Positions 1-64,000 of a DNA stretch of 64,000 nt are shown here, piece by piece (position 1 is the stretch's first letter; every line of letters begins with the position of its first letter). The position numbers and the translations under genes were made by a program. The notes under the pieces are model-generated. The model had not been told where the DNA came from. It saw only the letters and a list, made by a program, of their open reading frames with translations, and did not search any database. Source of the DNA: Convolutriloba macropyga (taxonomy: Eukaryota). The stretch lies in assembly GCF_964194025.1 (NCBI RefSeq), contig NC_134472.1, positions 48,422,001 to 48,486,000 of the forward strand, given 5' to 3'.

Positions 1-998
1 ACTAATCTTCCATATGGTGGTACCATAGGAGTGTCTACTTTGAATTGTATATTTCCTTGTACGTTTTCTAGTCTTTTTTGTAATGGTGGGTTTGATAAGT
101 AATTGAATGATATGTTATGCCGTGTTGGCCTATATTTTGTATTTTTAAGGACGTTAATTCTGGCGAGTTCGTTACGAACTTCGTCTGGGTCCAAGATTTT
201 CGTTCTTCGTGCATCTGATACGTAATAGCTCGGTCTGTTTGCTCTAATGTAATGAGTGTGTTGTGAACACCATTCTACTTTTTCTTTGATCGTTCCTGTA
301 ACAGCATATGCTTTAATCTCTACAGCTTGTGCTTTTGATAATAATTGAACTTCTGTTTTTGTCATTTCTAAGTCTAACGGTTTAAATTTACATGTGCTGA
401 TTTTGTTCAGTTCGTAGTATTTTACGTTTGTTATTTCTTCTGCGTCGCAGTCGTAATGTTCGATAAAAATGTCTTGAGGTCCTACTGCTGATCCATTAAT
501 GTTTTGTCCTTTCAATTCAACGTAATCTTCTTTTGTCTGTCGTTTGTTTCTTTTATTATTTAGTTGGAATTTTTCCAAAATACTGTCTGTTAATTGTTCT
601 CTGTAAAAATTCCAATTTCGTGTCCATTTATCTATGGCTATTTCCCACATTTGTTCGTAATCTGTACTATTCTTGAATTCTTTTAAGTCTGGTGATGTAT
701 ACTTTGATGGTAATTTGTATATTTCCGTTTCAAATTTTGTTTTGTTATTAAATACATGATCCATTAACTTGTTCAAGTTATCTTGGTCGGTTACATTTAT
801 GTTATTTGTTTTTGTTTTGTTTTTCTTTTTGAAACTTTCTATATGTTTTTCCATACGTTCTTGTATGTGTTCTTTAATTTGTTCTCTGATATTTTGTTTT
901 ATTTTATATTTTGATCTTATTTCTGTGTCTATTTTCATATAGATAAATAATGTTATTAGTAATAATATTAGTATTATGGATTTTAATTGAAGCGGCAT
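1..998 (-). CDS. env: Envelope-like fusion glycoprotein, N-terminal 332 aa (truncated by window edge)
   Basis: MPLQLKSIILILLLITLFIY hydrophobic leader; RNKR at aa 150-153; HYDCDAEEITNVKYYELNKISTCKFKP...VQLLSK...EWCSQH; N-x-S/T sequons; no stop before the edge. Confidence 0.85.
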   Translation of the reverse strand, partial: MPLQLKSIILILLLITLFIYMKIDTEIRSKYKIKQNIREQIKEHIQERMEKHIESFKKKNKTKTNNINVTDQDNLNKLMDHVFNNKTKFETEIYKLPSKYTSPDLKEFKNSTDYEQMWEIAIDKWTRNWNFYREQLTDSILEKFQLNNKRNKRQTKEDYVELKGQNINGSAVGPQDIFIEHYDCDAEEITNVKYYELNKISTCKFKPLDLEMTKTEVQLLSKAQAVEIKAYAVTGTIKEKVEWCSQHTHYIRANRPSYYVSDARRTKILDPDEVRNELARINVLKNTKYRPTRHNISFNYLSNPPLQKRLENVQGNIQFKVDTPMVPPYGRL

Positions 999-2479
999 GT
1001 GTATGATAGTCCTGTGTGGGGATTATAGAATGTTGCAAATCCTAAAGTTTGTTTTGTATATCTGTCAAACTTATAAACAAAGTCAATACAAATAAACGGT
1101 GCTGGTGTCGTTGTTGTCACTATAGATGGTGTTGTTGCATGAAATGGATGATTGAATATCGTATCGTATTTAATCGTTGTGTTAAATTTTAGTTCTAGAG
1201 ATGGTGTTGCTAGAACTTCAAGTGCTGAATTTCGTTGGCGATGTGTTAGGTTTAAGGTATTTGTAAGTCTACTTCTTGACCAATTTGTGAGAGTATCTCC
1301 AAGATTAGTTGGTCCGTATAATGGTGGAGGTGGATTCCAGGTTTTATAATCTAGTGTAAAAAGATATGTATGTTCATTAATTCTACTTAAAGTTGGTGGA
1401 TTTGGATTTAGTACTGGTGTTGATCTAGTTCTACCGGGGTGACTTGATGCTAATCTTAATTCGGGTATAAATGATGCTGGTGAGAGTATTGTACTTCGTG
1501 GTGGTTGTAGAGAGTTTGTTACTTCTACTCGTGGTGCGCTGACTGAGGTGTTCGAGGAGGAAGATTGTTGTGATCTATTTGGTGTAGTGTTCGTGCTTAT
1601 CGTATTTTGCGGTGAAGTTGCTGACCAAACTGAACTATGTGGTGAGTGTACTGGTTGTACACGAAAATTGTCTTGTACGAAATTGAAATCTTGTCTTTGT
1701 TGAAATGTAGGTGGTAAAAATGGGTTAGCTCGAAGTTCTGATGCTGTTGGTGTTGGAATAGTATTAACACTTGAATGATCGCTAGGTGAACTGATATTAA
1801 AATTATGTAGTGTTGGTGTTCGGGTTGGTGTTCCGGTTGGTGTTCCGGTTCGACTTGGTGGTTCTGATTGTTCTGCTCCTATAGGTCTTATTATGTTTGA
1901 TTCTATATCAGTTGATCCGTATGATACTAATGTAGATTCTTGTGTAGGAAATGATAGTGATGCTCTACGTCTGCCTCTTAGTAGATGTCGTGTATCTGTT
2001 CTTGCTCGTCTTACTGTATATGGGTTTTCGTTTTCGGGGTTTGTTTCTTCTATTTCTGGTGATGTGGGTATATTTGTTAAATCTGTTACTTCGTTGTGAT
2101 GTGGTCTTTCTGGGTGATTGTTACTATTGTTATTACTATTTGATGAAGCAATTTTTGTTGTTTTGAGATAATTTCAGGCTCCAGAACCTGGTCCGGGTGG
2201 TGGATGTTGTATGAACGGTGGGGCTAGTATAACTACTGGTATTAATTCTTGTTCTGGTTGGTATGTTTGAGCTCCTAGGTTTGTAATCCAAATTTCGTTA
2301 GTTGTTAGTCTAATATTTAGTTGATATATGACAATGTTACCATGTAATGGTGATGTGTTGGGGAATCCAATTTGGAGGTAGAACTTTTGTGTATGTACTG
2401 TATGATATATCGATTCTTCAATGTCTGGGTTGGGATCAATTTTTATGGGTTTACAAAATATTCTATTAGTCCTAAGCAC
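983..2479 (-). CDS. Accessory ORF 4: ~498-codon protein with a central S/T/P/R-rich disordered region and one in-frame TGA (2174-2176)
   Basis: The 101 aa track ORF continues in frame after its TGA for 396 stop-free codons to TAA at 983-985. Confidence 0.75.
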
Positions 2480-2622
2480 ATACGTACGAAGAAGTATATT
2501 ATAATTGCAATTTTTATAAATTTAAATATTTCTAATTCGACAATATCTATGTTTGTTTTACATATGTGGTAAATATCGGAGTGGGTTTCATGCATCGGGT
2601 TACTGTACTGGTGGGCTTGCAT
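2443..2622 (-). CDS. Accessory ORF 3: 59 aa small membrane protein
   Basis: MQAHQYSNPMHETHSDIYHICKTNIDIVELEIFKFIKIAIIIYFFVRMCLGLIEYFVNP*, just under the track cutoff. Overlaps both neighbouring ORFs. Confidence 0.45.
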   Translation of the reverse strand: MQAHQYSNPMHETHSDIYHICKTNIDIVELEIFKFIKIAIIIYFFVRMCLGLIEYFVNP

Positions 2623-2809
2623 ATACGACTCGGCGGTTGCTTATAACTTCGCTTATTGTTACAATAGTTAAATATGTCGATATTATTACAATGCAAGGTA
2701 CTAGGAGTATTGTTAGGAAGAATATTACTTTAGATAGTATAAAGTAGATTGTTATTAAGGATTCGTTGAAATCTATTTTTGAAACTGGTAAATAAAATGT
2801 GTAACTTTG
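2600..2809 (-). CDS. Accessory ORF 2: ATG-less 69-codon frame with a long hydrophobic segment
   Basis: Manual translation ...ESLITIYFILSKVIFFLTILLVPCIVIISTYLTIVTISEVISNRR...; acceptor-like TTTTATTTACCAG at 2785-2797. Confidence 0.35.
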   Translation of the reverse strand, partial: QSYTFYLPVSKIDFNESLITIYFILSKVIFFLTILLVPCIVIISTYLTIVTISEVISNRRVVYASPPVQ

Positions 2810-2993
2810 TTATTAATTATTTAAAGGTGAGGTGTAATGCTGCACTGAAGAGTGACAGTTATTTGCTCAATTGTAACTCTCACTTAACCGTGCCGCACTA
2901 CAGATATTATTATACAGTATTTATCTGTAGAATACTATTACAATTACTGGTATCATATCCTAAAGAATGTGTTACAAAATATTTGTTAGAGTT

Positions 2994-3485
2994 TTACTCT
3001 GTGGTTTTATCGTCAAGAGGTGTTGTATCGTCTATAAGTGTTATAGCGTCTTTTTTACATACAACTATAAAAACTGTTTTTAGTTTGTTAAGGTCAATAC
3101 ATTGATCTGTTTGGATCTGTTGTTTCAGTAAGCTATACTCTGTGATTGTTTCGTTACAAATGGTTATGTGTTTTAGTAATTCAAAATGTTTTTCTCCCCA
3201 AAATAGTTTTGCTTCTTGTCCGCTTTCTGTTTTTCCTTCAATTATAAATAAACAATCTTTATCGGAGAATTTACAAATTGTTGTTCTTATACTATCGTTA
3301 TCAAAATGAATGTGGTTTCCAAATGAGTAATCTAATTTTGCAAAGTTTTCTCTTTGGACTTGGATTTTTATACAAAACTGTTTTCTGTTCAAAGAGTGCA
3401 AAAACTCTGACACTTTTATCATTGGTGGTTTTTCATCACTGTGGTGACTGTAGTGATGGATTAATCTTTCGGAGAAGAAATTCAA
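2994..3485 (-). CDS. Accessory ORF 1 of retroelement, unknown function (163 aa; frame open from ~3560)
   Basis: Same strand as gag-pol, globular-looking composition, TTG start, preceded by a pyrimidine-rich tract on the minus strand. Confidence 0.6.
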   Translation of the reverse strand: MNFFSERLIHHYSHHSDEKPPMIKVSEFLHSLNRKQFCIKIQVQRENFAKLDYSFGNHIHFDNDSIRTTICKFSDKDCLFIIEGKTESGQEAKLFWGEKHFELLKHITICNETITEYSLLKQQIQTDQCIDLNKLKTVFIVVCKKDAITLIDDTTPLDDKTTE

Positions 3486-4546
3486 ATAGTTTAATGCGTT
3501 GTTAAAAGGATTCAGTTTACCTGGTGTTGTTGAATTGTTGAGTGAAAAGGATAAATGAAAGAGTTATGACAAATATGAGAAAAGTTATGAAAGAGGTTAT
3601 GAAGTGATACAAAATGAATTTCTTTTTGAGATAGAATATTTTTAGTCTTAAGACTAAATTTTGTATTTGTGGAGTTTAGAATTTTCATCTTAGCTTAGTT
3701 TTTTCGCAAATTTTTTCAGATTTTTGAACAAGTTTTAACGGTTGTGGTTTGTGCGAGGCAAAATCAGAATTGTGATTTTTACTTTCTTTTCGAAGGCTCT
3801 CTATAATGTTGGTGACATTTTTATATCTTCCGTTTTTCATTTTTTGGATTTTAAGTTGTCAGTTTCAATAATTACTGGGTCCAATTATGGTGTTAGTTTC
3901 CTCGTTTGATGAATTGGTTACTCTTCTGATTTTTACGATACTCTTGGTTCTCGAGATTTTGTTTTCCTTGTAATTTGTATATTGACATGTGTCTGATGGT
4001 TAGATGGTGTGCTTTCATCATGGTATGTTAATTCTTTCTTGGTGCCAACTATATGGTATCAATAAGCTTAGTTTGTTGTTTCTCTGCCAATTATGCTATT
4101 TCTTCTGTTTTGAAGTGTTCTCCCTATCATTAGGATGGTTAGTTAGTGATGGTTGGTGGCATTAGCGGGATGGTTAGTGGTGCCAGTTCTTACCAATTAG
4201 TTTGGTACTTTTTGGTCTAATTAGCTATATGGTATGTCTGTTGTATGCCTTTGATGGTGCAACTCTGCAGATGGTGCAACTCTGCAGATTTTAATTATTG
4301 CCATAAACGAAGTATTGACGTAGTTTAAATGTTTATTTCATCTACTAATGATCTTAGTAAGACCTGTCTTGTTTAATCACCATTGTGTTAGGTGAAAATG
4401 TTGATTGGTATGTTTTTGTTACTAATTGCGTCTGCATAGAGACTGTTTGTCTCTAACGTTCGTTGTTTAAGATATCTTTGTTGATGGTGTCAATTTGGTA
4501 TTTTCTTCCCTTTAATTGGTTTTAGTTTTAGTTTGGATTTTTAAAG

Positions 4547-4727
4547 ATAACGTCCGTTTCTTTACTAATGATGTCTGTGACATTTTAGTTGTTGGCGTTT
4601 GTTAGAATAATAATGTCCGTATTTTCACTAATGAGATATATAACGTCCGTATTTTCACTAATGAGATGGATAACGTCCACATTTTGCACTAATGAGGTGT
4701 ACTAATGAGGTGTATGACGTCCGTTTT
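4547..4727. repeat. ~30 bp degenerate tandem repeat (TAACGTCCGTATTTTCACTAATGAGAT)
   Basis: About five copies visible. A separate 17 bp tandem duplication GATGGTGCAACTCTGCA lies at about 4253-4288. Confidence 0.85.
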
Positions 4728-6009
4728 TAAATGACATATATTAGTGTGACGTATATTCCGGTTTTTGCAAAGTGTATTGCAAAATATGTTAAATGTTCAT
4801 TTCGCCGAATGTGTTGTAAGCCGAATGTTTTGTTACGTTGGCTAAGCTTATAAATGATAATTGGCGGTTTCATTGATCATGTTCATGGAACGTGTGAAAG
4901 ATCTGTATTGGATGTGAAGTGAAACATGTATTCTTGTGTTTTAGATGTTGTTGAATGTGCGATGAAGATATCCTATTGTGTTATGGAAGACGTATTTGCA
5001 ATGATGTATTCGGATCCCTATATTATCTCAATAGCACGTTATGCTAGTCATTACAGACTGTTATTCGTATTTGCTTTCGTCCACTTATTTGTTCTTAATT
5101 TCCGTCCTTCGTTTATACGGTCATTATGCCACGGTGTACATTAATTGTGTTTACATCGTTAGTTTAATTAGTTCTGTTTCCTTATTTTCATCGTTTTCCT
5201 ATGTAGTTAGTCATCACTGTTATTTGTAATATACTTTTCCCTTTCTGTAATCCTCAAATAGGATATGTGAGTAGAATTGTTAACAATTTCGAAGTATCTA
5301 TTCCATTTCGAGAGTGTTTACGTTATTATAACACTCTTGTATCTTTGATTATTTGATCTTTGTTACTACTGTTTGTTTATCGTAGATATCAACTATCTCA
5401 TAACGTCTATTCCAGTTCAAAGCTTTTGAACATTTAAAACATACTTTTTGTTACTTGAATTATTGTGTTACTTGCTTTCTTGTTTACATGAGAATTTACC
5501 CGTGTTAATCTTTAGACGGGGTTTCATGGGCTACTATCAATACCCATTTGTTTTAGTATATCCTGTATGGATATTATCATTTGTTATTTGTATATTTGTT
5601 TATTGTTTTGATGAAAATGTATGGAAGCGATGTGTGATGGGGATGTATGCTGTTGTCAGTTAGTACAGACTCTTCGGTTTTGGACATTGTCAGTACAGAA
5701 ATGTGTCGGTAAACATTAACTGTTACAACTTTTTATGTGTCTTTTCCCTTTTTTGTCTTTTATAAATGTTTATCCATGTTACTAAAAGGTGTTAGTGGTG
5801 TAAGTTAATAATTGTTATAACTCAATTAGTCTTTTCATTAGTTGAAATATAGTGGATACATTTGAGGTGATTTATTTAAGTTCTATGGGTGAGAGGTTAT
5901 GTAGATTGGAGCACCTTTTAGTAATGCTCTTTTTATATTTGTTCTGTTTATTATTTATAATTTTAGTGTAATTCTAATTTATATGTTTTGTTTTATCTTT
6001 TGATAGTGT

Positions 6010-6064
6010 GGGGGGGGGGGTTATGACACACAAGGTTCGGGTTAGGGGGTTTTGTGTGTGTCAT
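6010..6064 (-). other. Hairpin plus C11 tract in post-integrase spacer
   Basis: ATGACACACA (6023-6032) pairs with TGTGTGTCAT (6055-6064); G11 run at 6010-6020 on +. Confidence 0.6.
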
Positions 6065-6355
6065 GTATAAATACTGAACATACTATGTATATTGGTGAAA
6101 TACTGAACATAAACTAAAGATGGAACTAGTGAAATGAATAATTTATAGCAGTTTAACTGTTGTATCGCTGTCTGCAATGATATTACTGTGCCAGCTGAAT
6201 CATTAGTTGTAGAATAAGTATTTGTAGGCTAGTTTAGTCTATTGCACTAGTTATTTAGTATGGATTTACGGTACTATAGCATTATTAGTTGTATTATTAA
6301 TATTATTATTATTATTATTATTATTTATAGTAAAATTTTCTCGAGGGGATTGTTA

Positions 6356-7867
6356 CTAAGGTTTTGGAATTGTTATTTTCTTCTTTCGAAGATTGTAACT
6401 GTGAGATCGTGTGATCTCATCAGGTTGTATATAATTCTTGGATTTTTGTTGAGTATTGGGTTGTTTTAAGATTGGGATTTCATTTGTCAATAAGTAATTT
6501 TGTAATTCTAGTTTAATGTGTTTTTCTTTCGGAAAGTATGGTACAATATGATTTCTATGTATTGTAATGTGTTTATCAGTATTGTCCTTCAGTATGTATG
6601 TTGTTTCTGTGGGTTTATCAACAATTAAATATTGTCCTGTTTTTAGAGGTAATAGTTTCTTTGATACTCCGTCAATCTGTTGTTGATTTGTGATCAAGAC
6701 GAATGTGTTTTTATCAAGTGGTTTCGCTGTTCTGAACCTTGAATTTAATTCATCAGTTAACCTTTTTCTGTTTCGTAATATTTTTGTTATGGTTTGATAT
6801 GTGTCATTATAATGTTTTTCTTTGTCAAGAAACCATTTTGCAAACGTTCCGTTTTGTAGTTTTGCTATTTTTGGGTGACTGAATTGTTTATCTAAGTGAG
6901 TATGTGCGGGTTGTGTTTTGCATGCGCTTGTTCTTGTTGGGTTACAGTTTCCCATCTCGTCTGTAGTTGTTCCAAGTTTAATCTTTGTTGGTTTTCTTGG
7001 TTTTTGGTTGAAAACAACTTCATAAGGTGACATGCCTAATCTTGTCTGGTATTGCGTATTATATGCATACGGAAAGAATTTTGCTTTTCTAGACCAGTTT
7101 TGGTACTTTTCGTTGAGTAATGTTCTGATAAATTGTCCAATTATTTTATTAGTTCCTTCCACTAGTCCGTTTGTCCAGGGTGCATATGTTGTGCTTGGTT
7201 TAAATTTGATTTCAAAGTAATTACAAAGGTGTGTTAATTCTGTATTTATATATTCCGATCCGTTATCGGAACGAATTTCTTCGGGTAGTCCGAATTTCAT
7301 AAACCAATGTTCAAATAATGCTGTAACTGCGTAGTGTGCATTGTTCTGAGGCGCACACATTATTGTTACGTAATGTGAGAATGCGTCTACTATCACAAAG
7401 ATAAAATTATTTCCTTCAGATGTAGGATGTATTGGACCTTTTGTGTCTATCATAATCATTTCATTAAAGTATGTTTTTGTAGGTGCTAATTGTTCTTGCT
7501 TACTTTTTGTTTTTGTGTTAGCGAAAACTTTGTTTGTTTGACATTGTATGCAGTCTGCGATCAGTATCTTGATCCAAGTTGTTAAGTTTGGGAAGTAATA
7601 TTTTTCCATTATGTTTCTTTTTGTTTTTTCAAGTCCCGTGTGACCAACTGTATCTACGCAATGGTTTTCGTAAAAAACACATAATAGTAATGTTAGTGGT
7701 AAACAGATTCTTTCTTTTGTTTGTTTTTTTATTCGAATAATCATTTTCATTATGTTAGTTTTTTCGTCAATTGTAATTGATTTAAACTTTCTGTAATACG
7801 CGAATAGTACTTTATTTCCGCGTATGTCCATTGTTACTGAATGTGGTTTATTGTTATTTTTTTCCAC
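6356..7867 (-). CDS. pol: Integrase (HHCC + DDE), joined to RT-RH by an A-run frameshift near 7860
   Basis: H-x6-H...C-x2-C zinc finger; IDTKG, SDNG and GLVE catalytic residues; GQY-type C-terminal module. Confidence 0.95.
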   Translation of the reverse strand: MEKNNNKPHSVTMDIRGNKVLFAYYRKFKSITIDEKTNIMKMIIRIKKQTKERICLPLTLLLCVFYENHCVDTVGHTGLEKTKRNIMEKYYFPNLTTWIKILIADCIQCQTNKVFANTKTKSKQEQLAPTKTYFNEMIMIDTKGPIHPTSEGNNFIFVIVDAFSHYVTIMCAPQNNAHYAVTALFEHWFMKFGLPEEIRSDNGSEYINTELTHLCNYFEIKFKPSTTYAPWTNGLVEGTNKIIGQFIRTLLNEKYQNWSRKAKFFPYAYNTQYQTRLGMSPYEVVFNQKPRKPTKIKLGTTTDEMGNCNPTRTSACKTQPAHTHLDKQFSHPKIAKLQNGTFAKWFLDKEKHYNDTYQTITKILRNRKRLTDELNSRFRTAKPLDKNTFVLITNQQQIDGVSKKLLPLKTGQYLIVDKPTETTYILKDNTDKHITIHRNHIVPYFPKEKHIKLELQNYLLTNEIPILKQPNTQQKSKNYIQPDEITRSHSYNLRKKKITIPKP

Positions 7868-9618
7868 ATTTTGACTTTATGAAGTACTGGATCTATTATT
7901 TGTGTTTCTTTAATCAACTCTTCTGTTACTTTTGTTTTTTCATCATAGAAAATATTTGTTATTTTTGCATGGTCGAAATTTTGTTCTTGTTTTACATTGT
8001 TGATTAATCTAAGATAGTCATCGTCATGATGAGTTATGTATGGTCCTTTTTGGTTTTTCTCTATGATTAAGTCATCTTTTTCAACAATTGGTGATTGCCA
8101 GTTTTTTGTTTTTGGTTTATATTTCGGTACTAAATTTGTTTTTGTTTCGGTATTATATTTTTCATATGATATCGGATGGTATTCGTTTTTATCAATGTTA
8201 ATTTCAAAGTAGTTGTTGTGTATGTTGGCTAGAACTGGATAATGTGTTGTGTCTTTGTTATCGTTGTTTGTATTGTTGCAAATGCTGTATTTGCATTCTA
8301 GGTTATTTGCAAATGGTGTTTTTGCAAAGAAGAATTTTATGTTTTCAGGTATTTCCACTGTAATATCACGTGTTTTTGTAAAATGTTCTTCATCTATTGT
8401 TCTACTGAGTAGATCTGGTAAAGCTAGGTTTTTCCCTTCAGTCCATATAATATGTAAGTTAGGAAATTTCATTAGTATCAATTGAAATCTGTAAACTCTA
8501 TGGTTTGGTTTATTCTTTTGTGTGAAAAGGTAAATGATTGGCTTATGATCTGTAAATAAAATAATTGGGTGATTTGAACCTGTTAATAAAAATTCGTATT
8601 CTGTGAGTGCGAAAATAATCGCTGAACATTCTCTAATTAGTGTAGATAGTCTCATTTCAATCGGTGTGAAAAGTCTAGAATTTGCTGATATTAATCGCAT
8701 TTTCTTTTCAGTTGGATGTTGTTGCAGTAATGCTGCTCCAATGCCTGTGTTGGACGCATCTGTTATAATGTAAAATGGTTTTGTTGTATCTGGTATTGTT
8801 AATTCTAGGTTATGTGTTATTGTTTTTTTCATTTGTTCAAATATTTTTTGATGTTCTTTAGTCCATTTGAAATCATTTTCTTTGTGTAATAGATTGTATA
8901 ACGGTTGTAATATTGGTTGCATTCCATAGACGTATTTGGCTAAGAAATTTATTGTTCCGAGGTATCGTTGTAAAGCTTTCATACTTGTTGGAGGTTCCAA
9001 TTTTTGGAATCCATCAATTCGTGATGTAAGTGGTTTTACTTTTTTGTCTTCGATAATGTGACCTAAGAATTTTACTTTCTTTAACATGAAGTATGTTTTA
9101 TCGGGTGCTGCTTTGAGATTTTCTTTAAGCAGTACTTTATGATATTCGATTAGTGTTTCAAACATTTGGTCATAAGAATTTGTTTGTATAAAGATATCGT
9201 CTACGTAAGTGATAACTGTTCCTTTTCTGATCAAAGTGTAAAGGAAATGTGTTAGTATTGATGCAAATGCTGCTGGTCCGATTGATATTCCGTAGAATAA
9301 TCTTTTAAAACAATATTGTTCGTTTCCAATTGTGAAATGTGTATATCTCATCGATTCTTCGTCTAATGGTATTTGGTTATATGCACTATTAAGATCTGCT
9401 GTTGTGAATATTGTTCCGTTTATTCTTGTTAAAGCTACATCAACTGGTTCAATTGGCCAGTTGCACTTTGATTCATCTATCATGCTGTTCAAATATCTTG
9501 CGTCTAGTACAATTTTTAAAGATTCTCCTTTTCGCAGTATTATTACCGGGTTTGTGAATGTATTTCCTGTTGATAGTTGTTCTTTATTTACAGGTGCAAT
9601 TATGTCATATTTTTTGAG
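7834..9618 (-). CDS. pol: Reverse transcriptase + RNase H + extra C-terminal domain (frameshifted fragment)
   Basis: KIVLDARYLN, DLNSAYNQ, RLFYG, YVDD, KFLGH, TDAS, RECSA, TDHKP and PDLLSR motifs. Confidence 0.95.
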   Translation of the reverse strand, partial: LKKYDIIAPVNKEQLSTGNTFTNPVIILRKGESLKIVLDARYLNSMIDESKCNWPIEPVDVALTRINGTIFTTADLNSAYNQIPLDEESMRYTHFTIGNEQYCFKRLFYGISIGPAAFASILTHFLYTLIRKGTVITYVDDIFIQTNSYDQMFETLIEYHKVLLKENLKAAPDKTYFMLKKVKFLGHIIEDKKVKPLTSRIDGFQKLEPPTSMKALQRYLGTINFLAKYVYGMQPILQPLYNLLHKENDFKWTKEHQKIFEQMKKTITHNLELTIPDTTKPFYIITDASNTGIGAALLQQHPTEKKMRLISANSRLFTPIEMRLSTLIRECSAIIFALTEYEFLLTGSNHPIILFTDHKPIIYLFTQKNKPNHRVYRFQLILMKFPNLHIIWTEGKNLALPDLLSRTIDEEHFTKTRDITVEIPENIKFFFAKTPFANNLECKYSICNNTNNDNKDTTHYPVLANIHNNYFEINIDKNEYHPISYEKYNTETKTNLVPKYKPKTKNWQSPIVEKDDLIIEKNQKGPYITHHDDDYLRLINNVKQEQNFDHAKITNIFYDEKTKVTEELIKETQIIDPVLHKVKMWKKITINHIQ

Positions 9619-11248
9619 ATAAGTTTTTGTATTCGTTCTCGAAGATGTATAGGTACTTTACTTATTCTTTGTTTTTTGAATATTGCATCTTTTTTTATTG
9701 GTAAGTTCAATTTTACTTTTGTTTTTCCTACGTCAAATTTTGTTGTTGCGTAGACTTGTCTATAATCAAATATGATTTTTACTACTTTTTCAAATTCTTC
9801 TTGTGTTAAGTGTGAATGTTGAAAATCAAACATTGTTATGAATTCTTTTTCTTGTTCTGAATATTTGTTAATATTAAATTTGCATTTGAAGTTTGGTTTT
9901 CTTTCAAATGTTGCGACTTGTTCAATAGTTTCGTTTTCTTGTATGTTTAATATTTCATCGATATCGTTTTCATTTTCGTATGTCAGATGGTATAGTGCTT
10001 GGAATAAGTCGATAGAGTTTGTTTGGTATAGTTCGTTATCTTGTTTTTTGAAGCTAATATTTCTGTTCATGAAACCAATGAGCCCTGTATTTATTGTTAT
10101 TCGGTGTCTATTTTTGTTGATCAATAGTATGTCCATAAAGTATTCTTCGTCTGAGGAAAAATCCTTTATGTCTGTAAATGATACGTTATGATATTTCTTT
10201 ATTGGTTCGAAATAGAATTTCGATTTCTGTATTGTTTTTTCATTTGAGTGTTTCATTTGTTCAAATATTGGTATTGGGAATGTTATGCTTTTCTGTTGAT
10301 TTGGTTCTATATAGATTGTTCCTCTATTAATGATTGTGTATAATCGAGAGTAGTAAAGATAACCTTTAGTACTATTCATGTAGAATATAATATCGTTGTC
10401 TAAATTTGTATTTGTATTTAATGTTAGTTTGTTGGTATTAACATTTATCGTCTCGATATATTCTTTGAAGAATGGTGTACCCAATATATTATGATTGCAT
10501 TGTGTTACATAGAAGTGAATGCAAAAAGTGGTTTGTGGTTTGTTTCTATTGTTAGAAATTCTGTCTGGTGTTAAATTCAGTGTTACTGTTCCGAATGTGT
10601 CTATTTTTGTATTATTTTCAGCTGTTAGTGTTTTGCTTGCTTTGTCCAAGATCATTTCTGGGTTATTGTATTTGATTTCATTCCATGTATCTTCATTTAG
10701 TAAGTTTAATGTTGCTCCTGAATCTAATAGGAAATCTATTTCTAACATAGGTTTTTGTTTTGTAAAGTCCTGTTCAAATTTCTGATATTGATACATTGGT
10801 AATATCCATGTTGGGTTGCTTTCTAATGTATTTATTACAGTATTGCATGTACCTTCATTGGCATTGTAAAATTTATCTAGTATTTCTTGATCTTCGTCTG
10901 AGGACTCTGATGTGTACTCATATTCGTCGAATCCTGGTGGATCGTTATTTGCTTTTTCTTGTCCTACGCTATTTATTCGGTTTTTGCTATTGTTGTTTCC
11001 ATCATTTCTCCGTTCTTTTGAATAATGTCTGTTATTTTGTTCTCGTTGGGATGAGTATCCTCTATTATCTCTGTTATTGTTATTTGAATGATTTCTATTG
11101 TTACTATTAGAACGTTGTCTATAGTTATCGTTTCTATTTGAATCTCTACTGTTGTATCTTTGTCGATTATTATTATTATTGTTTTTGTTACTATTATAAG
11201 GTGATTGTTGTCTTGAATTATTTCTGTCATTGTATCTTGAATTTGATC

Positions 11249-11282
<34 letters not shown>

Positions 11283-11645
11283 GTATTTGTTATAGCTGTT
11301 GCTTCTATGATAACTGTTGCTTCTGTTTCTATTGTAGTTATTCCTGTTATAACTAGTACTTCTGTTATTATAATTATTTGATCTTTGATATCCTTGATTG
11401 TTTCTACTATCTCTGGAATGTCTATTATGGTAGTTATTTCTTGAATGTGATCTGTATGGTGTCCGACTTCTGGAGTTGTTATATATTGGTGATGTCGGTG
11501 GTAGTTGTCTGCCATTGACATTATTTGAGTCAATTCTTCTATTTGGTAAGTTTTGATTGTTTCTCATGTGACTGTAGAATGATCTTTCTTTCGGTCTTGT
11601 AACACTACCTCGACGTGGTCTCTTGAAACATCTTCCCTTTGTGTG
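9600..11645 (-). CDS. pol: Gag-Pol continuation: N/R/S-rich linker, aspartic protease, probable degenerate dUTPase-like domain, start of RT
   Basis: In frame with gag across the TGA. Contains FLLDSGATLNLL and NILGTPFF (protease) and IFKKQRISKVP (RT start). Frameshift near 9615. Confidence 0.88.
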
Positions 11646-14039
11646 TCAATGTGTGCTACAATAGCTACAAAACAGTGCAAACTTTGGTCTTCCTTTAAAA
11701 TTCTTTTTGTCATATGTATTGTTAATTCCGTTTAGAACATTGCATATTGTTCCTTCGAATTGTTCTAAGTCGTTTTGATTAAGTTCATTTATATTATTAC
11801 AGGCTATATTCATTTGTTTTAGATCTTCATTAATATTTGTTGTACTCTGGTTTACTTCATATAATCTTTTGTGATTATTAGTTATTGTTCTTGTTAGATC
11901 CATTTGGTCTATTTTCTCTACTAATGTTTTGAATGGCATTTCTGGTTCTCGTGGAGTTTGTTTGTGGTTTGCATGTTTCTTTAATGCTGCGTTTTTTAAT
12001 TCGTTGTCTAAACATCTTATGAACGTTTGGTTCATAACACTATTTCTGTAATCTTCTGTGTATAGAGAATAAGCAGTTTTGACAAGAGTTTCTATTCTTA
12101 ACGCTAATGATCTGAGTGATTCGTTTGTATGTTTTTGTAATTGTTGTAATATGATTTTTGCTTGTTGTTTTGATTTTTCCGAATCAAACATATCTGAAAA
12201 TTCTTTGCAAAATGTTTCCCAATCTAATTTTGTTTCACTTGGAAGTGTCGAATACCATTTTTGTGCAGGTCCCTGTAAAGTATGTAGTATTAACGCTGCT
12301 CTTTTTACTTTCCATTGGTGATGTCCTGGTTTATTTACCGGTTCAATGCCACTGCTGAATATCATAGCAGCGACAATGCTATTTAAATATTCTTCAACGG
12401 TATATGCTGGGTCTGTTCCATCGAATGGTCTTATTGTTGTTGGTACTGAACCACTGCTAATGTTTTGTTCAATTTGAGGGTCTTCGTTTATGCTCATTGA
12501 TGTTAATTGTTTATAAAATGGTAGAGGTGGTTCTACTACTGTTGTTTCCCTTTCTTCTGTTGTGATTGAATTTGTTCTTCTATTTTGATTTCCTTGTTGT
12601 TGATTACTATGTCTATCAGTATTTTGTATGTTTTCATTTGTTGTATGTTCATGGTTTCTGTTATGAAAAGGATTTTTTTGGTTTCTGTTATGTAATGGAT
12701 GTTCGTATTCCGTTCTATAGTTATTTTGTCCTTGTAGATTGTCAAGAGTTCTATCCAATTTATTGATAACCATTTCTAGTGCTTCTTCTTGTCTTTTTTC
12801 CATATTTTGGCTCATTCGATGATATTTTTCTTCTAGGTTATTTATTAATTTATTAGTATGTTTTGTTACTGTTTGTGTAATTTCGTTTTTTAAGTCTTCA
12901 TAATTATATTGTTGTTGTTGCCAATTTTGTTCTTGGTTTCTATATTTGTTATCTACCGAGTTGATGTACATTCTGTTGCTGTTAATTTCGTCCTTGTTTT
13001 GGTATTTTCGTCTGTTTTGGTTTACCGATGGTGGAAATTGATTGTCAGATCTAATTTCTCTTTCATCTGAATCAGAATTGTCTACATCTTCTATTGTATT
13101 ATTGTTGTTTCCGAATAAATTTGATGTTAATAGTTTATCTGGTTTTATTGTTGATTTTTGTTTTACTTGTGAATTGTTGCTCAGTTGTGTATCTTTTGGT
13201 GTTGACGTTGATGTTGAACTTTTTGTTATATTAAATGATGATGATCCTGATTGTCCTTGATCCAGTATTTTCACGTAATTTTCCAATCCTTCAATGAAAT
13301 TAATACTGTCTGAACTGATCTGTAAAGTACTTTCAAAATTTTCTGAACAATATTCTTTATCCCAAATATTTTTGAGTTCATCACAGAGATATCCTATTTC
13401 GTTAGGATATGTCTCTCCGAACTGTATTCGTTTTTCGTTTATATGTTCAAAATTGTCTAACCAAAAGAGGAAAGTAAATTCAGATACTATTTTTATGATA
13501 TCTATTGAAGCTGTTTTTATTTCTGGTTTTAGTTCTATTATTTTTGTCAACCAATTATTATAGTTTTTGATGTCAAATCTTAATCTGTCATTCACAGACT
13601 GTACCTGTTGACGACTTTCATTGAGATATCCACTTGTGTTTCTTATTATGTTGTATGTTGTGGATGTTATTGCTGTTTGTTTTGTTCTATCCTGTGATTC
13701 TTCATGTCTTTTTAAAAATATTTTTAGCATTTCCGATAATGTTGTTTCATTTTGGAAATTAAAATATGTTCTTCTGTTGTTATTTTCATTTGTTAATACA
13801 AATGTATAGTTTTTGTTGTATCTATCACTATTCAGTAGTATTACTGGTAGATAGTGTGTCAAATGGTTGCGGTTGATTTTGATTTGTTGTATATGATCTG
13901 TTTCTTTGAAGAGGTTTCTCTTCAAATTTATGATTATTCTGTAATTTAATTCTGTATTTTCTTGTGGACAATCATTTGCGATAACAAAAGGTGTTAATTC
14001 GTTATTATGGTTTGATTGTGTATCAAATTTGGAAGCCAT
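11646..14039 (-). CDS. gag: Gag (long N-terminal extension, capsid domain, CCHC knuckle broken by TGA)
   Basis: 797 aa ORF with FDGTDP..VEEYL, LQGPAQKWY, DWETFCKEF and LQKHTNESL. It ends CSYCSTH*HTKGRC and the frame stays open into 11567. Confidence 0.9.
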   Translation of the reverse strand: MASKFDTQSNHNNELTPFVIANDCPQENTELNYRIIINLKRNLFKETDHIQQIKINRNHLTHYLPVILLNSDRYNKNYTFVLTNENNNRRTYFNFQNETTLSEMLKIFLKRHEESQDRTKQTAITSTTYNIIRNTSGYLNESRQQVQSVNDRLRFDIKNYNNWLTKIIELKPEIKTASIDIIKIVSEFTFLFWLDNFEHINEKRIQFGETYPNEIGYLCDELKNIWDKEYCSENFESTLQISSDSINFIEGLENYVKILDQGQSGSSSFNITKSSTSTSTPKDTQLSNNSQVKQKSTIKPDKLLTSNLFGNNNNTIEDVDNSDSDEREIRSDNQFPPSVNQNRRKYQNKDEINSNRMYINSVDNKYRNQEQNWQQQQYNYEDLKNEITQTVTKHTNKLINNLEEKYHRMSQNMEKRQEEALEMVINKLDRTLDNLQGQNNYRTEYEHPLHNRNQKNPFHNRNHEHTTNENIQNTDRHSNQQQGNQNRRTNSITTEERETTVVEPPLPFYKQLTSMSINEDPQIEQNISSGSVPTTIRPFDGTDPAYTVEEYLNSIVAAMIFSSGIEPVNKPGHHQWKVKRAALILHTLQGPAQKWYSTLPSETKLDWETFCKEFSDMFDSEKSKQQAKIILQQLQKHTNESLRSLALRIETLVKTAYSLYTEDYRNSVMNQTFIRCLDNELKNAALKKHANHKQTPREPEMPFKTLVEKIDQMDLTRTITNNHKRLYEVNQSTTNINEDLKQMNIACNNINELNQNDLEQFEGTICNVLNGINNTYDKKNFKGRPKFALFCSYCSTH

Positions 14040-14166
14040 TTGTTATTCTTTGAATTTTAATCCGTTCTGTTTTTCTAACAATAGTTTTTGTTATATCCCT
14101 CAGAAATTATAATTGTTTACCCAATTTAGTTCAGCACTGGTCGCACCAGATAAGACGTGTTCTAGA

Positions 14167-14243
14167 GCTTACCTTTGTTAGGGTACTTTCTGAACTGTCT
14201 TATGGTTGTCTCAAGAATACTAGTTAATCTTAAGGCTTACCTG
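14167..14243 (-). promoter_or_regulatory. Two consensus 5' splice donors in the leader (CAG|GTAAGC at 14240; AAG|GTAAGC at 14172)
   Basis: Near-perfect donor consensus located between PBS and the gag ATG. Confidence 0.5.
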
Positions 14244-14301
14244 ACTAACTAAAGTTCTATTCCTCTAGTCTGTTACTCTTCTATCTGAGCTTCAGTAGAC
14301 G

Positions 14302-14316
14302 GTGCACGGGCCCCAA
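14302..14316 (-). promoter_or_regulatory. Putative primer-binding site (TTGGGGCCCGTGCAC), possibly tRNA-Pro-like
   Basis: Immediately follows the LTR-terminal CA. Matches 10/13 positions of the usual tRNA-Pro PBS TGGGGGCTCGTCC. Confidence 0.45.
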
Positions 14317-14767
14317 TGCTACGGTCTAACGTTTATCTCAATACAAAACAAGAGCGGAGTAGAGAGAGAGAAATATACTCTATTATTAAATCAGGATGGT
14401 AACTGGTACTGACTAAATTACTTTCTCTTCTGCTGAGAGAGGGTAGATGGGTAAACACATAAAGGAAAAGGAGGATAAAATAATATATCATTTTTATCCA
14501 ATCAGGAAAGAGTATTTCAGTCTTTTTCTGAATAAAGTCTTTCAAATATTAAATATTCTTTTTTGGAAGTCATGCCTGACTCCAAGGTCGCGCTGGTTTC
14601 GTTGTTTTTCTTGTTTTTTCATTGTTTTTGTTTTTTGACACTTCTTGTCCTACGTTTTCGGCACTACGTTTTTCTAGTCTATTGCTGTTTTGCGCATGTC
14701 GTGCTCTACGTTTTTTAAATTGTGCAATGTTGACTTTTCCTCTGTTATAGATGGTTTGGATGCAGCA
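14317..14767 (-). repeat. Putative 5' LTR (~450 bp)
   Basis: Minus strand starts TGCTGC (14767) and ends GTAGCA (14317), an imperfect TGCT..AGCA inverted pair. It is followed by a PBS-like motif and the compositional skew ends here. The partner LTR is outside the window, so boundaries are unconfirmed. Confidence 0.55.
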
Positions 14768-15207: not shown

Positions 15208-16574
15208 TATACAATTATATACAAACGGCTTTGACAATTTAATTGTGCAGCCAGATTTTGAATTTAGGATGTATACGGTAATCAAACTTTGTTTACAATG
15301 TTAGCAGACAAAGAATAATCGTGTTTTTAATACTTTTTCGCTATTTTTTCGCAGGAATAGCTTTATGGTACTATTTTTTTTCAACAACAAAAATTCATTC
15401 ATTCGTCTACCGGTACCGGCAATTTATTGTGACTAAAATAATGGATCTCTAAGGACCAAAAAGAAATTTTTGGGGGGTGCAAAAGGACTGGCTATATAAG
15501 GCTGGGGGAATAACAGAAAAGAGCCCTCTTTTGTAACTTTAATATGCTATAGTACTGCACTCAAAGTTAAAAATGATTAACTTGAACGGCTCATTATTTC
15601 ACTTGGAATCGTGTCAAATAATGATCTTTATACTTTTTAAGGATATTTCAAATCAAATAACTAAATGCACCTCCACAAACTTATTACTATTGCTAATCCA
15701 TCGCACAGAGACAGTCAGTCTAAAAGGGATGCGTATGAATACATGCAAGGATAAATGAGTGCGTGCTTGGCAAAAATTTCTCAAATACTTCGGCTCAATG
15801 TGTCCTTACAGACATGTGATTAGACAAGGTACCAACAAATGCAGTCTCGGAAACAATTCTCCCGTAGCATTTAAGCTAATGAAAGTTAACCGAAAGTCGG
15901 CAAAAATTATTTATGAACTTTCTTAATCAAGAAAATTTTTCGAGTACCATTTTTGCATCAAAGTATCATAAAATCAATGAATCCACACATGAAGAGATAT
16001 CAGAAATATCAACCCATCACAATCGGGTGAAAAACTATTATCTACTCCAAAAAATATGACTTCTTTAATCGCCTCATCAACTTAAAAGGAAAATGCTAAA
16101 TGATAACTAACAATCTGTATGCAAAATATGTCACCCAAAGACCTTTCTGCATTTTGACCACACGATTGAGATATATCCTCCACAATATTTGTATCCGGAA
16201 AAAATTCAAACTTGCATTGCGTCAGGGCTTACTTTAATTCTTGTAAGGCCAATTTAGTTTCCGGATTTAGCGCCATCGAAATAGTGGGAATTCTTTCTCT
16301 ATTAAACACAAAGATGGTACATGTACTATCGCAGACATATTTCATCACTGCTTCTCTATCTTAGCCCAATAACTAGGAAGGTTTTAATCCACCTCAAATT
16401 TCCCCTTTTGCTGCACCTCCGACAGCCGAATGCCGAATAGGTTTATAATTTAGAAGGTCAATTTATGCCGTTTTGAATACTTTCAGGAGACTTCTTCATC
16501 GATTCACAAAATAGAATCACAGAATATTTATAGCATTAACAAGTAATAAACAAATCATTGAGTTTCATAACACA

Positions 16575-28400: not shown

Positions 28401-29950
28401 CCGCGCCGCAAAACCAAGTAACAAATACAAGCTGTAATTTGAACAATTTAAAATATGCATACTCCGCGTTGCAAATACCAATTAACACTTCACTCGCTAA
28501 GCGAAATGCAACTCAATGTAAACAATCCTTCCAAAAACGGAATGAAAAGCATCTCGCGAGGCGCGAAACTCTGTTCATTAAGCTTAATTTCCCTCCAATT
28601 AGGAGAAATTCCAAAAAAATATCTAAAAGTCACTACCCAAAAATAGCATCAGTGCTTTTTGCGTTAAATCACTCTCAAATTTCCTTGCATAAATCTGCTC
28701 AAGTTAATACTTCACATTTTAAACCATACTCAGATAATAATCATATCAACTCAAATAAACACAACATGCCTTCTTAAAGCAAATTTACAAGAGTCCGCTT
28801 CTTCACCGACTCCCCATTCACCGCTAACCCACATTCTACGCTTCCAAATTCATCTGGCACCGCAAATCATCCCTTAAGTTCCCCAAGCGCTACTCTCACC
28901 AATAATCCTACCCCTATTACCACTCGAACGTCCCAAGCTCTGTCATCAAATGTCAGCACTCACCTAACACCTAGCCCCCAAAACCCTACATCGTTAACAA
29001 GATTTTTAGTAAGTTGTTGATTGCATCTCTTACTAGCAAGGACGCTGTCTTAAAAGAGGTTCAAGATTGTATCCTCGCAAATAATGAAAGCAGATTAAAA
29101 ACACTTAATCCATATATCTACTCCTATTGCAGAAATCTCCACGTCCGTTCCGGCTGTGTGCATCGACGAGAAAGTTGCCATACCAAACGTCATTCGCGAA
29201 GTCCTGATCGATGATAACCACGCGAGCCAACCAGGTATTTGGGGGATGATTTGCATGGCCATGCATTGCTGGTGGCTCTACATGAATCGGAAACCTTGCA
29301 CTGCAATCCGTAAGTATCTAAAATCTGTAATTCCCGCTAAACAATTTCGACCTCATGTACCGTGCGTTGAACCGAATTAGGAAATCCAAGTTGATTTTGG
29401 AGGCCCTTTTTGACGAAAAAAGCAAGGCAGTTTATTTCTTAGCCGCAATAGATCGTATCTCTAAATACCCCACTGCATGTATATATGAGAAAGCTAATGG
29501 ATCAATTGTTTTAAGATGTTTGGTTATGTACATAGAGTTTCATGCAATTCCTCGTTCTATTCGACCTGATCAAGCAATTTGTTGGGTTGGAAATCAAGTA
29601 AAGATTTTCTGTACTAAGAATAATATTCAAATAATTGAAGCCCCTGTTAATTCTTCGTGATATTGGTTTAGTAAAAAGACTAATTTAGACGATTCAGAAT
29701 CAATTGGCAAGTATCAAAGATAAAAAAAAATTGGCTAATAACGAATTTCATGTATAGTATGCATTAAAGGTTATCATCATCAATTGCGAATCAGTGAACA
29801 GGAGACAACAAAGATCTCGCCATTCGAAGCACACTTTGGCCGAAAACTTAATACCCCGCTGAACATAATCTTCACTAAACCTAAACTGTCTAACTCTGGT
29901 ATGAGAATATTGTAAACCACTATTAAGATGAAGACATTGTCAACAAAGAT
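25447..29950 (+). pseudogene. gag-pol pseudogene of the Mag-like element
   Basis: Fragments CSNCG..H, CKNCG..KH, VDSGS, DLKYGYSQL, FLDD, YSVNERELLG, TDHRAL and AIDR, interrupted by many stops and frameshifts. Confidence 0.92.
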
Positions 29951-63893: not shown

Positions 63894-64000
63894 TTGGACA
63901 TTTGAAAAAAATATTCCTCAATTTGTAACCTTTTTAATCAAAGTATTCAAGTTCTTGTTGAACAAGCGTGGCACAGTTTTCAAGTTATACTACTGCGAAA

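What the first reader, a model, noticed from the sequence alone, without database searches (positions are those of the whole stretch)
983..3560. Chain of overlapping accessory ORFs between pol and env: complex-retrovirus-like organisation
Seen: four co-oriented frames of 163 aa, 69 codons (hydrophobic), 59 aa (membrane-like) and ~498 codons (S/T/P-rich). The last three are chained by short overlaps (2622/2600, 2479/2443) and the last overlaps the env ATG (998/983). Established: most gypsy elements have no more than gag, pol and env. Inference: a polycistronic accessory cassette of unknown proteins expressed by splicing or termination-reinitiation.
Basis: partly seen in the sequence, partly recalled or inferred. 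Interest (0 to 1): 0.85.

Follow-up and report, generated by a model that had tools for sequence, protein, structure and literature searches.

The report
Retrovirus-like element's genes lacking AUG starts
A virus-like jumping gene in an animal genome carries five extra genes kept by selection between its polymerase and envelope genes, and four of them lack a usable AUG, so they likely start at AUU- or CUG-type codons while most ribosomes would scan on to the next gene, a strategy known from plant pararetroviruses.

Summary
The cassette is real but misread. It lies in a young 21-kb Ty3/gypsy element with a class III-type env. The '498-codon' frame holds a stop (2174-2176) that is present in 64 of 69 copies, so it is two genes. 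There are five genes (A-E) plus an 11-codon ORF, all under purifying selection (dN/dS 0.06-0.18; other frames 0.5-3). Conserved coding begins at CUG/GUG (A, 70 of 70 copies), AUU/AUA/AUC (B, 67/70), AUU (D, 66/69; E, 63/67), with purine at -3, and G at +4 for B, D and E. D-E are stripped of AUG (2.5 per kb against 14.8 in env). A distant second family starts its E homologue at the same AUU-GCG and is also AUG-poor. Changing spacer frames argue against read-through, and no invariant acceptor precedes D or E. [quoted passage not shown] No protein has a known family or fold. The scan noted another gene-rich element in this genome and a fungal AUG-less retrotransposon gene elsewhere; I found no paper on this arrangement.

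The parts
14151..14584 (-). 5' LTR, 434 nt; holds two donor-like AG|GTAAG sites (GT at 14240 and 14172); no ATG from 14459 to the gag ATG
   Evidence: 99.5% identical to the 3' LTR in L031; 4-nt target duplication; the 14240 site is unchanged in all 20 LTR rows shown
6356..14039 (-). gag-pol (gag, PR, RT, RNase H, IN); broken in this copy by a stop at 11646-11648 and frame breaks near 9600-9657 and 7834-7876
   Evidence: one frame of about 2,560-2,590 codons in many other copies
3524..6355 (-). 2.8-kb non-coding spacer with conserved islands, 30-nt repeats at 4547-4728 and an acceptor-like site at 5783; possible internal promoter or non-coding exons
   Evidence: islands conserved without frame bias; role inferred
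3517..3523 (-). Donor-like site (C/A/T)AG|GTA, 5 nt before the start of A
   Evidence: 70 of 70 copies; A/C-rich upstream, unlike the element's T-rich acceptors; CAG|GT also precedes the first accessory ORF of family 2 in 16 of 20 copies
2994..3515 (-). Gene A, 173 codons from CTG, soluble alpha/beta protein; first in-frame ATG only at 3422
   Evidence: CTG 63, GTG 7 of 70; dN/dS 0.18, and purifying also upstream of the ATG (0.32 among divergent copies)
2921..2956 (-). Short ORF of 11 hydrophobic codons
   Evidence: 11 codons in 60 of 70 copies; dN/dS 0.06
2835..2900 (-). Hairpin whose 3' arm holds a candidate splice acceptor (AG at 2846-2845)
   Evidence: no compensatory pair; AG in 69 of 69 arms found, YAG in 68
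2600..2776 (-). Gene B, 58 codons from ATA (ATT in divergent copies); small membrane protein
   Evidence: ATT 37, ATA 28, ATC 2 of 70; dN/dS 0.16; hydropathy 2.7
2443..2595 (-). Gene C, 50 codons from an ATG with pyrimidine at -3; one predicted membrane helix
   Evidence: ATG 67 of 69; dN/dS 0.06; hydropathy 2.3
2174..2440 (-). Gene D, 88 codons from ATT, 2 nt after the C stop (GTG 2479 is an alternative start)
   Evidence: ATT 66 of 69; dN/dS 0.16; no Met in 45 of 54 unbroken copies, a late one in 8
983..2152 (-). Gene E, 389 codons from ATT; S/T/P-rich N-terminal part and a conserved C-terminal domain of about 110 aa
   Evidence: ATT 63 of 67; dN/dS 0.16, C-terminal 0.11; no Met in 29 of 32 unbroken copies; model pLDDT 72.5
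1..998 (-). env, 5' part (signal peptide, basic cleavage-like site); runs out of the window; broken further on in this copy
   Evidence: Pfam Monjiviricetes_fusion E 1e-7 in both pieces; ATG 63 of 65

Best explanation
This is a selected five-gene accessory cassette of an envelope-bearing Ty3/gypsy element, likely read from spliced or subgenomic RNAs on which four genes would start at non-AUG codons (A at CUG/GUG; B, D and E at AUU-type codons) while most ribosomes would scan past them to later genes and env. Shown by sequence: the genes are under purifying selection; D and E have no usable AUG; their conserved coding begins at near-cognate codons in optimal context; AUGs are scarce and in pyrimidine context from the hairpin to env; spacers change frame. 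Inferred: an RNA that keeps the 3520 donor unspliced makes A; splicing to the acceptor in the hairpin gives an RNA that opens with B (AUU), then C (weak AUG), D and E (AUU) and env (AUG), with reinitiation after the 50-codon C and after tiny uORFs; splicing to a T-rich acceptor behind env makes a sixth gene, G. The leader comes either from the AUG-free LTR exon or from a promoter in the spacer (not resolved). Weakest inference (about 0.25): the products serve particle egress and entry with env (B and C as small membrane helpers, E as a matrix-like adaptor always placed just before env).
For: dN/dS 30 close x 19 divergent copies: A 0.18, short ORF 0.06, B 0.16, C 0.06, D 0.16, E 0.16; off-frames of A-E 0.86-3.2. 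Start codons and context in 70 copies: -3 purine in B 69/70, D 69/69, E 67/67; +4 G in 69/70, 67/69, 65/67; C and env AUGs have pyrimidine at -3 in 67/69 and 63/64. The pattern A-N-N ATH G occurs at 26 of 3,219 gag-pol/env codons. First codons of D and E are ATT only (52 of 52, 32 of 32 Ile codons), whereas most other Ile sites vary or prefer ATA. AUG density D-to-env 2.5/kb vs 14.8/kb in env, 64 of 70 copies; E has 3 out-of-frame AUGs vs 10.7 (codon shuffle, P 0.002) or 6.5 (synonymous resampling, P 0.027). All 8 AUGs in 2910-999 have pyrimidine at -3, vs purine in 93 of 181 in gag-pol and env. Family 2 (integrase about 45% identical, E about 27%): E homologue starts ACA/AAA/ATA-ATT-G in 18 of 20 copies, begins I-A-S-S like E, has no Met in 3 of 3 unbroken copies, 1-5 AUGs per about 1,250 nt in all 20, and the same env overlap. 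Positive control: G's acceptor TTTTAG|CA is invariant in 29 of 29 copies, whereas AG before E is in 45 of 67 and before B (-9) in 55 of 70. Precedent: RTBV (PMC5902531, PMC3542737; passages).
Against: No RNA, ribosome or protein data; no splice junction was seen. The element's own gag AUG also has C at -3, so pyrimidine at -3 need not be weak in this host. Five AUGs cluster in the B/C region and C must be passed or reinitiated after; two or three more lie in D-E. The env AUG itself is in the same 'weak' context, unlike RTBV ORF III. AUG depletion is significant only for E (and marginally A); B and D are too short, gene G is depleted too (P 0.001-0.05), and one of three family-2 copies is not significant (P 0.13). 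In family 2 the AUU lies inside another selected frame, which could conserve it. D could start at GUG 2479 in 59 of 69 copies. The start positions were chosen after seeing the alignments. The hairpin has no compensatory pair. The PPxY-like motif of E lacks Tyr in distant homologues. Copies are related, so counts are not independent events.
Confidence: 0.55

Rival explanations
1. Stop-restart chain: the same non-AUG and weak starts are reached mainly by ribosomes that finish the gene before (B to C, C to D, D to E, E to env), not by scanning from the cap.
For: Each start sits 2-24 nt from the previous stop or 16 nt before it; non-AUG codons can serve in termination-reinitiation (PMC3542737 passage); B and C are short enough for ordinary reinitiation.
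Against: No UGGGA within 100 nt before any of the five stops; spacers vary freely; AUG depletion along 1.2 kb of E in two families is needed for scanning, not for restart.
Confidence: 0.2
2. Each gene gets its own RNA (several starts of transcription, extra cis-splices or trans-splicing), and is the first ORF on it, still from a near-cognate codon.
For: Conserved donor-like sites in the LTR and at 3520, acceptor-like sites at 5783, 2845 and before G; Tor elements use spliced or internally promoted env RNAs (PMC4402516 passages).
Against: No invariant AG with a T-run before D, E or env; such RNAs could simply use AUG, and would not explain AUG loss in E.
Confidence: 0.12
3. B, D and E are downstream exons that are joined to an AUG-bearing exon (gag start or A), so no non-AUG start is needed.
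For: AG stands 5-8 nt before A, B and E starts in the same phase in the close copies; ATT-G could be plain Ile-Asp/Ala.
Against: That AG is missing in whole lineages (E 45/67, B 55/70), while G's real acceptor is invariant; an acceptor further up in D would include D's stop; the leader before 3520 and the LTR exon are non-coding.
Confidence: 0.08
4. D and E (or C, D, E) form one protein by read-through or frameshifting, as the 498-codon reading implies.
For: D and E are in one frame in the 30 close copies; one divergent copy has a deletion that fuses them.
Against: The stop is TGA, TAA or TAG; the spacer is 14-21 nt and out of frame in 12 of 28 divergent copies scored; C-D spacing is 2, 3 or 24 nt.
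Confidence: 0.03

Closest known systems
HSV/gB-type 'ancient errantiviruses' (Chary and Hayashi, eLife 2026, PMC13524379; abstract, sections 5 part 1 and 14, word search; supplements not seen)
   Same: Ty3/gypsy gag-pol, separate env of the chuvirus/gB-like group, many near-identical copies.
   Different: 21 kb with 5.4 kb between pol and env; that survey's prefilter allowed 1,000 nt and 10 kb, and its main text has no hit for 'accessory', 'splic', 'internal promoter' or 'non-AUG'.
Rice tungro bacilliform virus and badnaviruses (PMC5902531, PMC3542737; passages)
   Same: AUU start, then a weak AUG, AUG-free ORFs allowing scanning over about 900 nt, a short ORF before a hairpin before the AUU.
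   Different: Plant pararetrovirus, not an integrating LTR element; one AUU gene rather than four non-AUG genes; uORF ends 7-8 nt before the stem, here 17-24 nt in most copies and about 40 in one lineage; the stem here is weaker and holds an acceptor-like site.
Tor elements of Oikopleura (PMC4402516; passages)
   Same: Invertebrate env-bearing gypsy-like elements with spliced or internally promoted env RNA.
   Different: No accessory cassette or non-AUG starts in the passages seen.
LTR retrotransposons with extra ORFs: bdelloid Vesta/Juno, Ogre, Burro (PMC5408684, PMC6431247; passages)
   Same: Extra ORFs after pol or between pol and env; large size.
   Different: One or two extra ORFs or one polyprotein, often captured enzymes; here six extra genes of no known family with their own translation signals.
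Complex retroviruses (HIV vpu-env, SIV rev-env; SIV and HIV case from PMC5902531 passage, rest recalled)
   Same: Accessory genes between pol and env, leaky scanning to env, a gene behind env reached by splicing.
   Different: Retroviridae have class I env and AUG-started accessory genes; no sequence relation was found.

Membership tests
Ty3/gypsy LTR retrotransposon (Metaviridae) | LTR pair with target-site duplication | tested here: met
   434-nt LTRs 99.5% identical; 4-nt duplication; ends TG...TA rather than TG...CA
Ty3/gypsy LTR retrotransposon (Metaviridae) | gag then PR-RT-RNase H-IN order with gypsy-type domains | tested here: met
   Retrotrans_gag, RVT_1, RT_RNaseH, Integrase_H2C2, rve in that order; protease only weak, E 0.097
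Ty3/gypsy LTR retrotransposon (Metaviridae) | RT phylogeny within Ty3/gypsy | not tested
   no tree with reference elements was built
HSV/gB-type errantivirus | env ORF after pol related to class III fusogens | tested here: met
   Pfam Monjiviricetes_fusion just at or above cut-off in both pieces; N-terminal and C-terminal hydrophobic segments
HSV/gB-type errantivirus | gB-like fold of env; RNase H bridge type; clade A1-A11 | not tested
   env was not folded; PDB sequence search gave nothing under E 0.4
RTBV-type leaky-scanning polycistron | upstream genes start at near-cognate codons in strong context | tested here: met
   sequence conservation only
RTBV-type leaky-scanning polycistron | scanned ORFs free of AUG | tested here: inconclusive
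   strongly depleted, not free: 8 AUGs in 1,915 nt, all pyrimidine at -3
RTBV-type leaky-scanning polycistron | one RNA shown to yield all proteins | not testable with these tools
   needs RNA and ribosome data
Caulimoviridae-type ribosome shunt | short ORF ending 7-8 nt (RTBV, RTSV) before a strong stem, AU-rich landing site with non-AUG codon | tested here: inconclusive
   order matches, spacing 17-40 nt does not; stem -16 to -24 kcal/mol in most copies, z -2.2 for the wider region, no covariation
TURBS termination-reinitiation (calicivirus, influenza B) | UGGGA motif 40-90 nt before the upstream stop | tested here: not met
   absent before all five stops in this copy
Stop-codon read-through polyprotein (D-E) | conserved frame across a conserved leaky stop | tested here: not met
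   three stop types; out of frame in 12 of 28 divergent copies

The most novel reading that the evidence does not exclude
An animal lineage of 'complex' errantiviruses runs a six-cistron programme from one or two RNAs by a ladder of CUG, AUU and weak AUG starts, gated by a peptide-coding short ORF and a hairpin that also hides a splice acceptor, to dose a kit of new-fold proteins that work with a class III envelope; the AUU-started E gene before env is an old, shared module of these elements.
Probability: 0.35. Interest if true: 0.85.

Novelty: new variant of a known kind. Interest (0 to 1): 0.7.

Why it matters
Env-bearing gypsy elements are described as gag-pol-env. This one shows that they can reach the gene content of complex retroviruses, and that ATG-based annotation misses or mis-starts four of five accessory genes. 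Several conserved non-AUG starts in one cassette, with natural variation over 70 copies and a second family, give a ready evolutionary test bed for start-codon selection in animals and name exact positions for profiling. Surveys that cap the pol-env gap would miss such elements. The E domain and protein A have no known family or clear fold match and are candidates for new viral egress or entry factors.

Tried and rejected
RNA evidence: no RNA holder listed; the four runs laid look like DNA contigs and showed no joint at the predicted splice sites; this says nothing on expression. Spliced genomic copies: the 18-nt leader end is followed by G in 57 places and by another base in 0; this would miss a joint to an exon that starts with G. 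P0001 joins A to D, but the joint does not fit GT-AG; read as a deletion copy. Families and folds: no Pfam hit for A-E; PDB sequence profiles of D and E-C gave nothing significant; A model pLDDT 60, best Z 4.2, weak SAS-6/XRCC4-like rows not trusted; E-C model, best Z 5.7 on a helix pair only, no Foldseek hit; Atlas best 0.83, lead only; Atlas for D and A did not complete; D, B and C were not folded. A dUTPase-like look of D (recalled) got no support. Homologues of A and D were only unnamed ENA records (the weakest 51 of 171 D hits were not listed). No relative of E-C in metagenome or viral contigs by pattern scan. A vs family-2 ORF1: no detectable homology, probability 0.35%. Rfam: nothing. 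One search used wrong coordinates, a query fused to RT, an irrelevant pair, and the acceptor count a faulty pattern (redone); none is used. A spliced-leader AUG cannot supply A, B or E because the nearby AGs are out of frame (the flatworm leader AUG is recalled). A candidate ORF at 3685-3858 shows no frame bias. The host species was not determined.
Full report
Setting. The finding lies on the - strand of one LTR element. Its 5' LTR is at 14151-14584 and its 3' LTR about 6.1-6.5 kb left of the window, 99.5% identical over 434 nt, with a 4-nt target duplication: about 21 kb in all. Domain order is gag, weak protease, RT, RNase H, integrase; env matches Pfam Monjiviricetes_fusion in both of its pieces. 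This copy is broken in gag-pol and env, but many copies have one gag-pol frame of about 2,560-2,590 codons and 6 of 10 close copies examined have one env frame of 1,136-1,138 codons. The 1.18-Gb genome holds about 100 close copies of D and further lineages at about 70% identity (150 of 773 candidates scored). I worked with 30 close copies (the window and L002-L030) and 40 divergent ones (L062-L081, L120-L139), picked from the hit lists, not at random.

The observation. A stop follows D's residue 88 in 64 of 69 copies scored, as TGA, TAA or TAG, and the gap to the start of E is 21 nt in the 30 close copies and 14-20 nt in 28 divergent ones, 12 of them out of frame. D and E are therefore two genes. 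Likewise the gap from the B stop to ATG 2595 is 2-14 nt in most copies and the gap from the C stop to D is 2, 3 or 24 nt, which removes ATG 2622 as C's start and argues against frameshift fusions.

Selection. Pairwise dN/dS between 30 close and 19 divergent copies (L081 was left out of this alignment; codon bootstrap) is 0.18 for A, 0.16 for B, 0.06 for C, 0.16 for D, 0.16 for E and 0.06 for an 11-codon ORF at 2956-2921; the other frames of A-E give 0.86-3.2. The stretch of A upstream of its first ATG is also purifying; the D frame inside C is not (5.4), though C's own constraint biases that figure. A sliding scan against 38 divergent loci shows coding signal from 3500 to env, none in the conserved islands of the pol-A spacer, and a further selected gene, G (542 aa), behind env.

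Start codons. In 70 copies A's conserved coding opens with CTG (63) or GTG (7); B with ATT (37), ATA (28) or ATC (2) of 70; D with ATT in 66 of 69; E with ATT in 63 of 67 (one copy has ATG). B, D and E have a purine at -3 in 69/70, 69/69 and 67/67 and G at +4 in 69/70, 67/69 and 65/67. The AUGs of C and env show the reverse: pyrimidine at -3 in 67/69 and 63/64. The in-frame pattern A-N-N ATH G occurs at 26 of 3,219 gag-pol and env codons. Unbroken B, D and E carry no Met in 57 of 58, 45 of 54 and 29 of 32 copies. These codons and this context are the ones listed for non-AUG initiation (PMC3542737, passage). Caveats: I fixed the positions after seeing alignments; D could start at GTG 2479 in 59 of 69 copies, though a 22-nt insertion puts it out of frame in three copies of one lineage; the gag AUG itself has C at -3.

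AUG depletion. From D's start to the env ATG there are 2.5 AUGs per kb against 14.8 in the env body (64 of 70 copies). E has none in frame and 3 out of frame, against 10.7 by codon shuffling (P 0.002) and 6.5 by synonymous resampling (P 0.027); B and D alone are not significant, and G is depleted too. All 8 AUGs between 2910 and 999 have a pyrimidine at -3, against a purine in 93 of 181 in gag-pol and env (about 0.003 by my arithmetic); those after C's start open frames of 1-14 codons.

A second family. A profile of E's C-terminal part found 51 proteins in the 50% library, down to about 25% identity, all ten looked up being unnamed ENA records. Some have no close match in this genome (best 35-45%), so the domain likely occurs in other hosts. 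One group marks a second family in this genome (integrase about 45%, E about 27% identical; 20 loci). Its E homologue starts at A-N-A ATT G in 18 of 20 copies, begins I-A-S-S as E does, holds 1-5 AUGs per about 1,250 nt, and overlaps the env ATG in the same way; shuffles give P 0.008, 0.027 and 0.13 for the three unbroken copies. There the ATT lies inside another selected frame, which weakens it as independent evidence. Its first accessory ORF starts with ATG right after CAG|GT (16 of 20) and shows no detectable homology to A.

Splice signals. (C/A/T)AG|GTA stands 5 nt before A's CTG in 70 of 70 copies; its upstream side is A/C-rich, like the two donor-like sites in the LTR and unlike the T-rich acceptor TTTTAG|CA that precedes G's ATG in 29 of 29 copies. 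A hairpin at 2900-2835 follows the short ORF by about 20 nt; it has three one-sided changes and no compensatory pair, and its 3' arm holds an AG after a pyrimidine run that is invariant in 69 of 69 arms although the A is unpaired. No comparable invariant, T-rich AG precedes D, E or env. All of this is sequence inference.

Mechanism. Most likely an RNA left unspliced at 3520 yields A from CUG; splicing to 2844 removes A and the short ORF and yields an RNA read B (AUU), C (weak AUG), D (AUU), E (AUU), env (AUG) by leaky scanning with some reinitiation after short frames; splicing behind env yields G. The AUG-poor stretch begins just where that acceptor lies. This parallels rice tungro bacilliform virus, where about 10% of ribosomes start at AUU and the rest scan 900 AUG-free nt (PMC5902531, passages). 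I put 0.97 on the genes being real, about 0.85 on non-AUG starts and 0.55 on the whole route. A pure stop-restart chain is the main rival; no UGGGA motif was found.

The proteins. B and C are small membrane proteins, A and D soluble, E 38% S/T/P with a folded C-terminal domain. None has a Pfam family. E's place before env in both families and the membrane segments of B and C suggest a role in egress or entry; this is weak, and E's PPxY-like motif (motif class recalled) loses its Tyr in distant homologues.

Comparison and novelty. The chassis fits the HSV/gB-type errantiviruses (PMC13524379), whose prefilter (gap up to 1,000 nt, 10 kb) would not take this layout and whose main text does not mention accessory ORFs or non-AUG starts; its supplements were not seen and may list related elements. 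Extra ORFs in LTR elements are known (PMC5408684, PMC6431247; passages). Seven literature searches (listings only, open-access library) showed no paper on a multi-gene non-AUG cassette in an LTR retrotransposon. The scan's notes describe another gene-rich env element in this genome and a fungal gypsy gene without ATG; I did not check them. Verdict: a real, selected cassette; a new variant of a known kind; interest 0.7.

Noticed in passing
L031 3705-5333 (- strand, left of the window): Gene G behind env: 542 aa, no Pfam family, purifying selection, invariant splice acceptor 3-10 nt before its ATG in 29 of 29 copies.
   Followed up: partly
window 5783 and 5500 (- strand): Acceptor-like TAAC...TTTTAG conserved in 16 of 16 rows and a donor-like GG|GTAA about 280 nt on, inside the non-coding spacer: possible non-coding exon.
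   Followed up: partly
window 4547-4728 and 4300-4450: 30-nt repeats and scattered TCATTAG and ACGTCA words conserved across lineages; look like transcription-factor sites (labels recalled).
   Followed up: partly
window 3680-3870: Conserved block with a 5-7-codon ORF ending in TAG (3818-3801) and a short TTCAG...CTGAA palindrome; a similar palindrome precedes CAG|GT in family 2.
   Followed up: no
L031 1926-3700: 1.8 kb between G and the 3' LTR with conserved islands and only short frames.
   Followed up: no
L140-L159: Family 2 has its own cassette: 128-aa ORF1, an ORF2 overlapping the start of its E gene, then env; pol-env gap about 2.8 kb.
   Followed up: partly
window 14151-14584: LTR ends TG...TA, not TG...CA; primer site begins after a 2-nt gap; tRNA not identified.
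   Followed up: no
window 44130-44591 and 54728-56065 (- strand): Two DUF229 host-type coding stretches.
   Followed up: no
window 16515-17039 (+): Exon-like frame with a PA domain.
   Followed up: no
window 58434-63900: Tandem array with a period of about 1.1 kb, 90-95% identical units.
   Followed up: no
window 25805-26377 and 28017-28421 (+): Fragments of another, older gypsy-like element (gag- and RNase H-like by eye).
   Followed up: no
L065, L128, L134, L147: Copies with internal tandem duplications of cassette parts.
   Followed up: no
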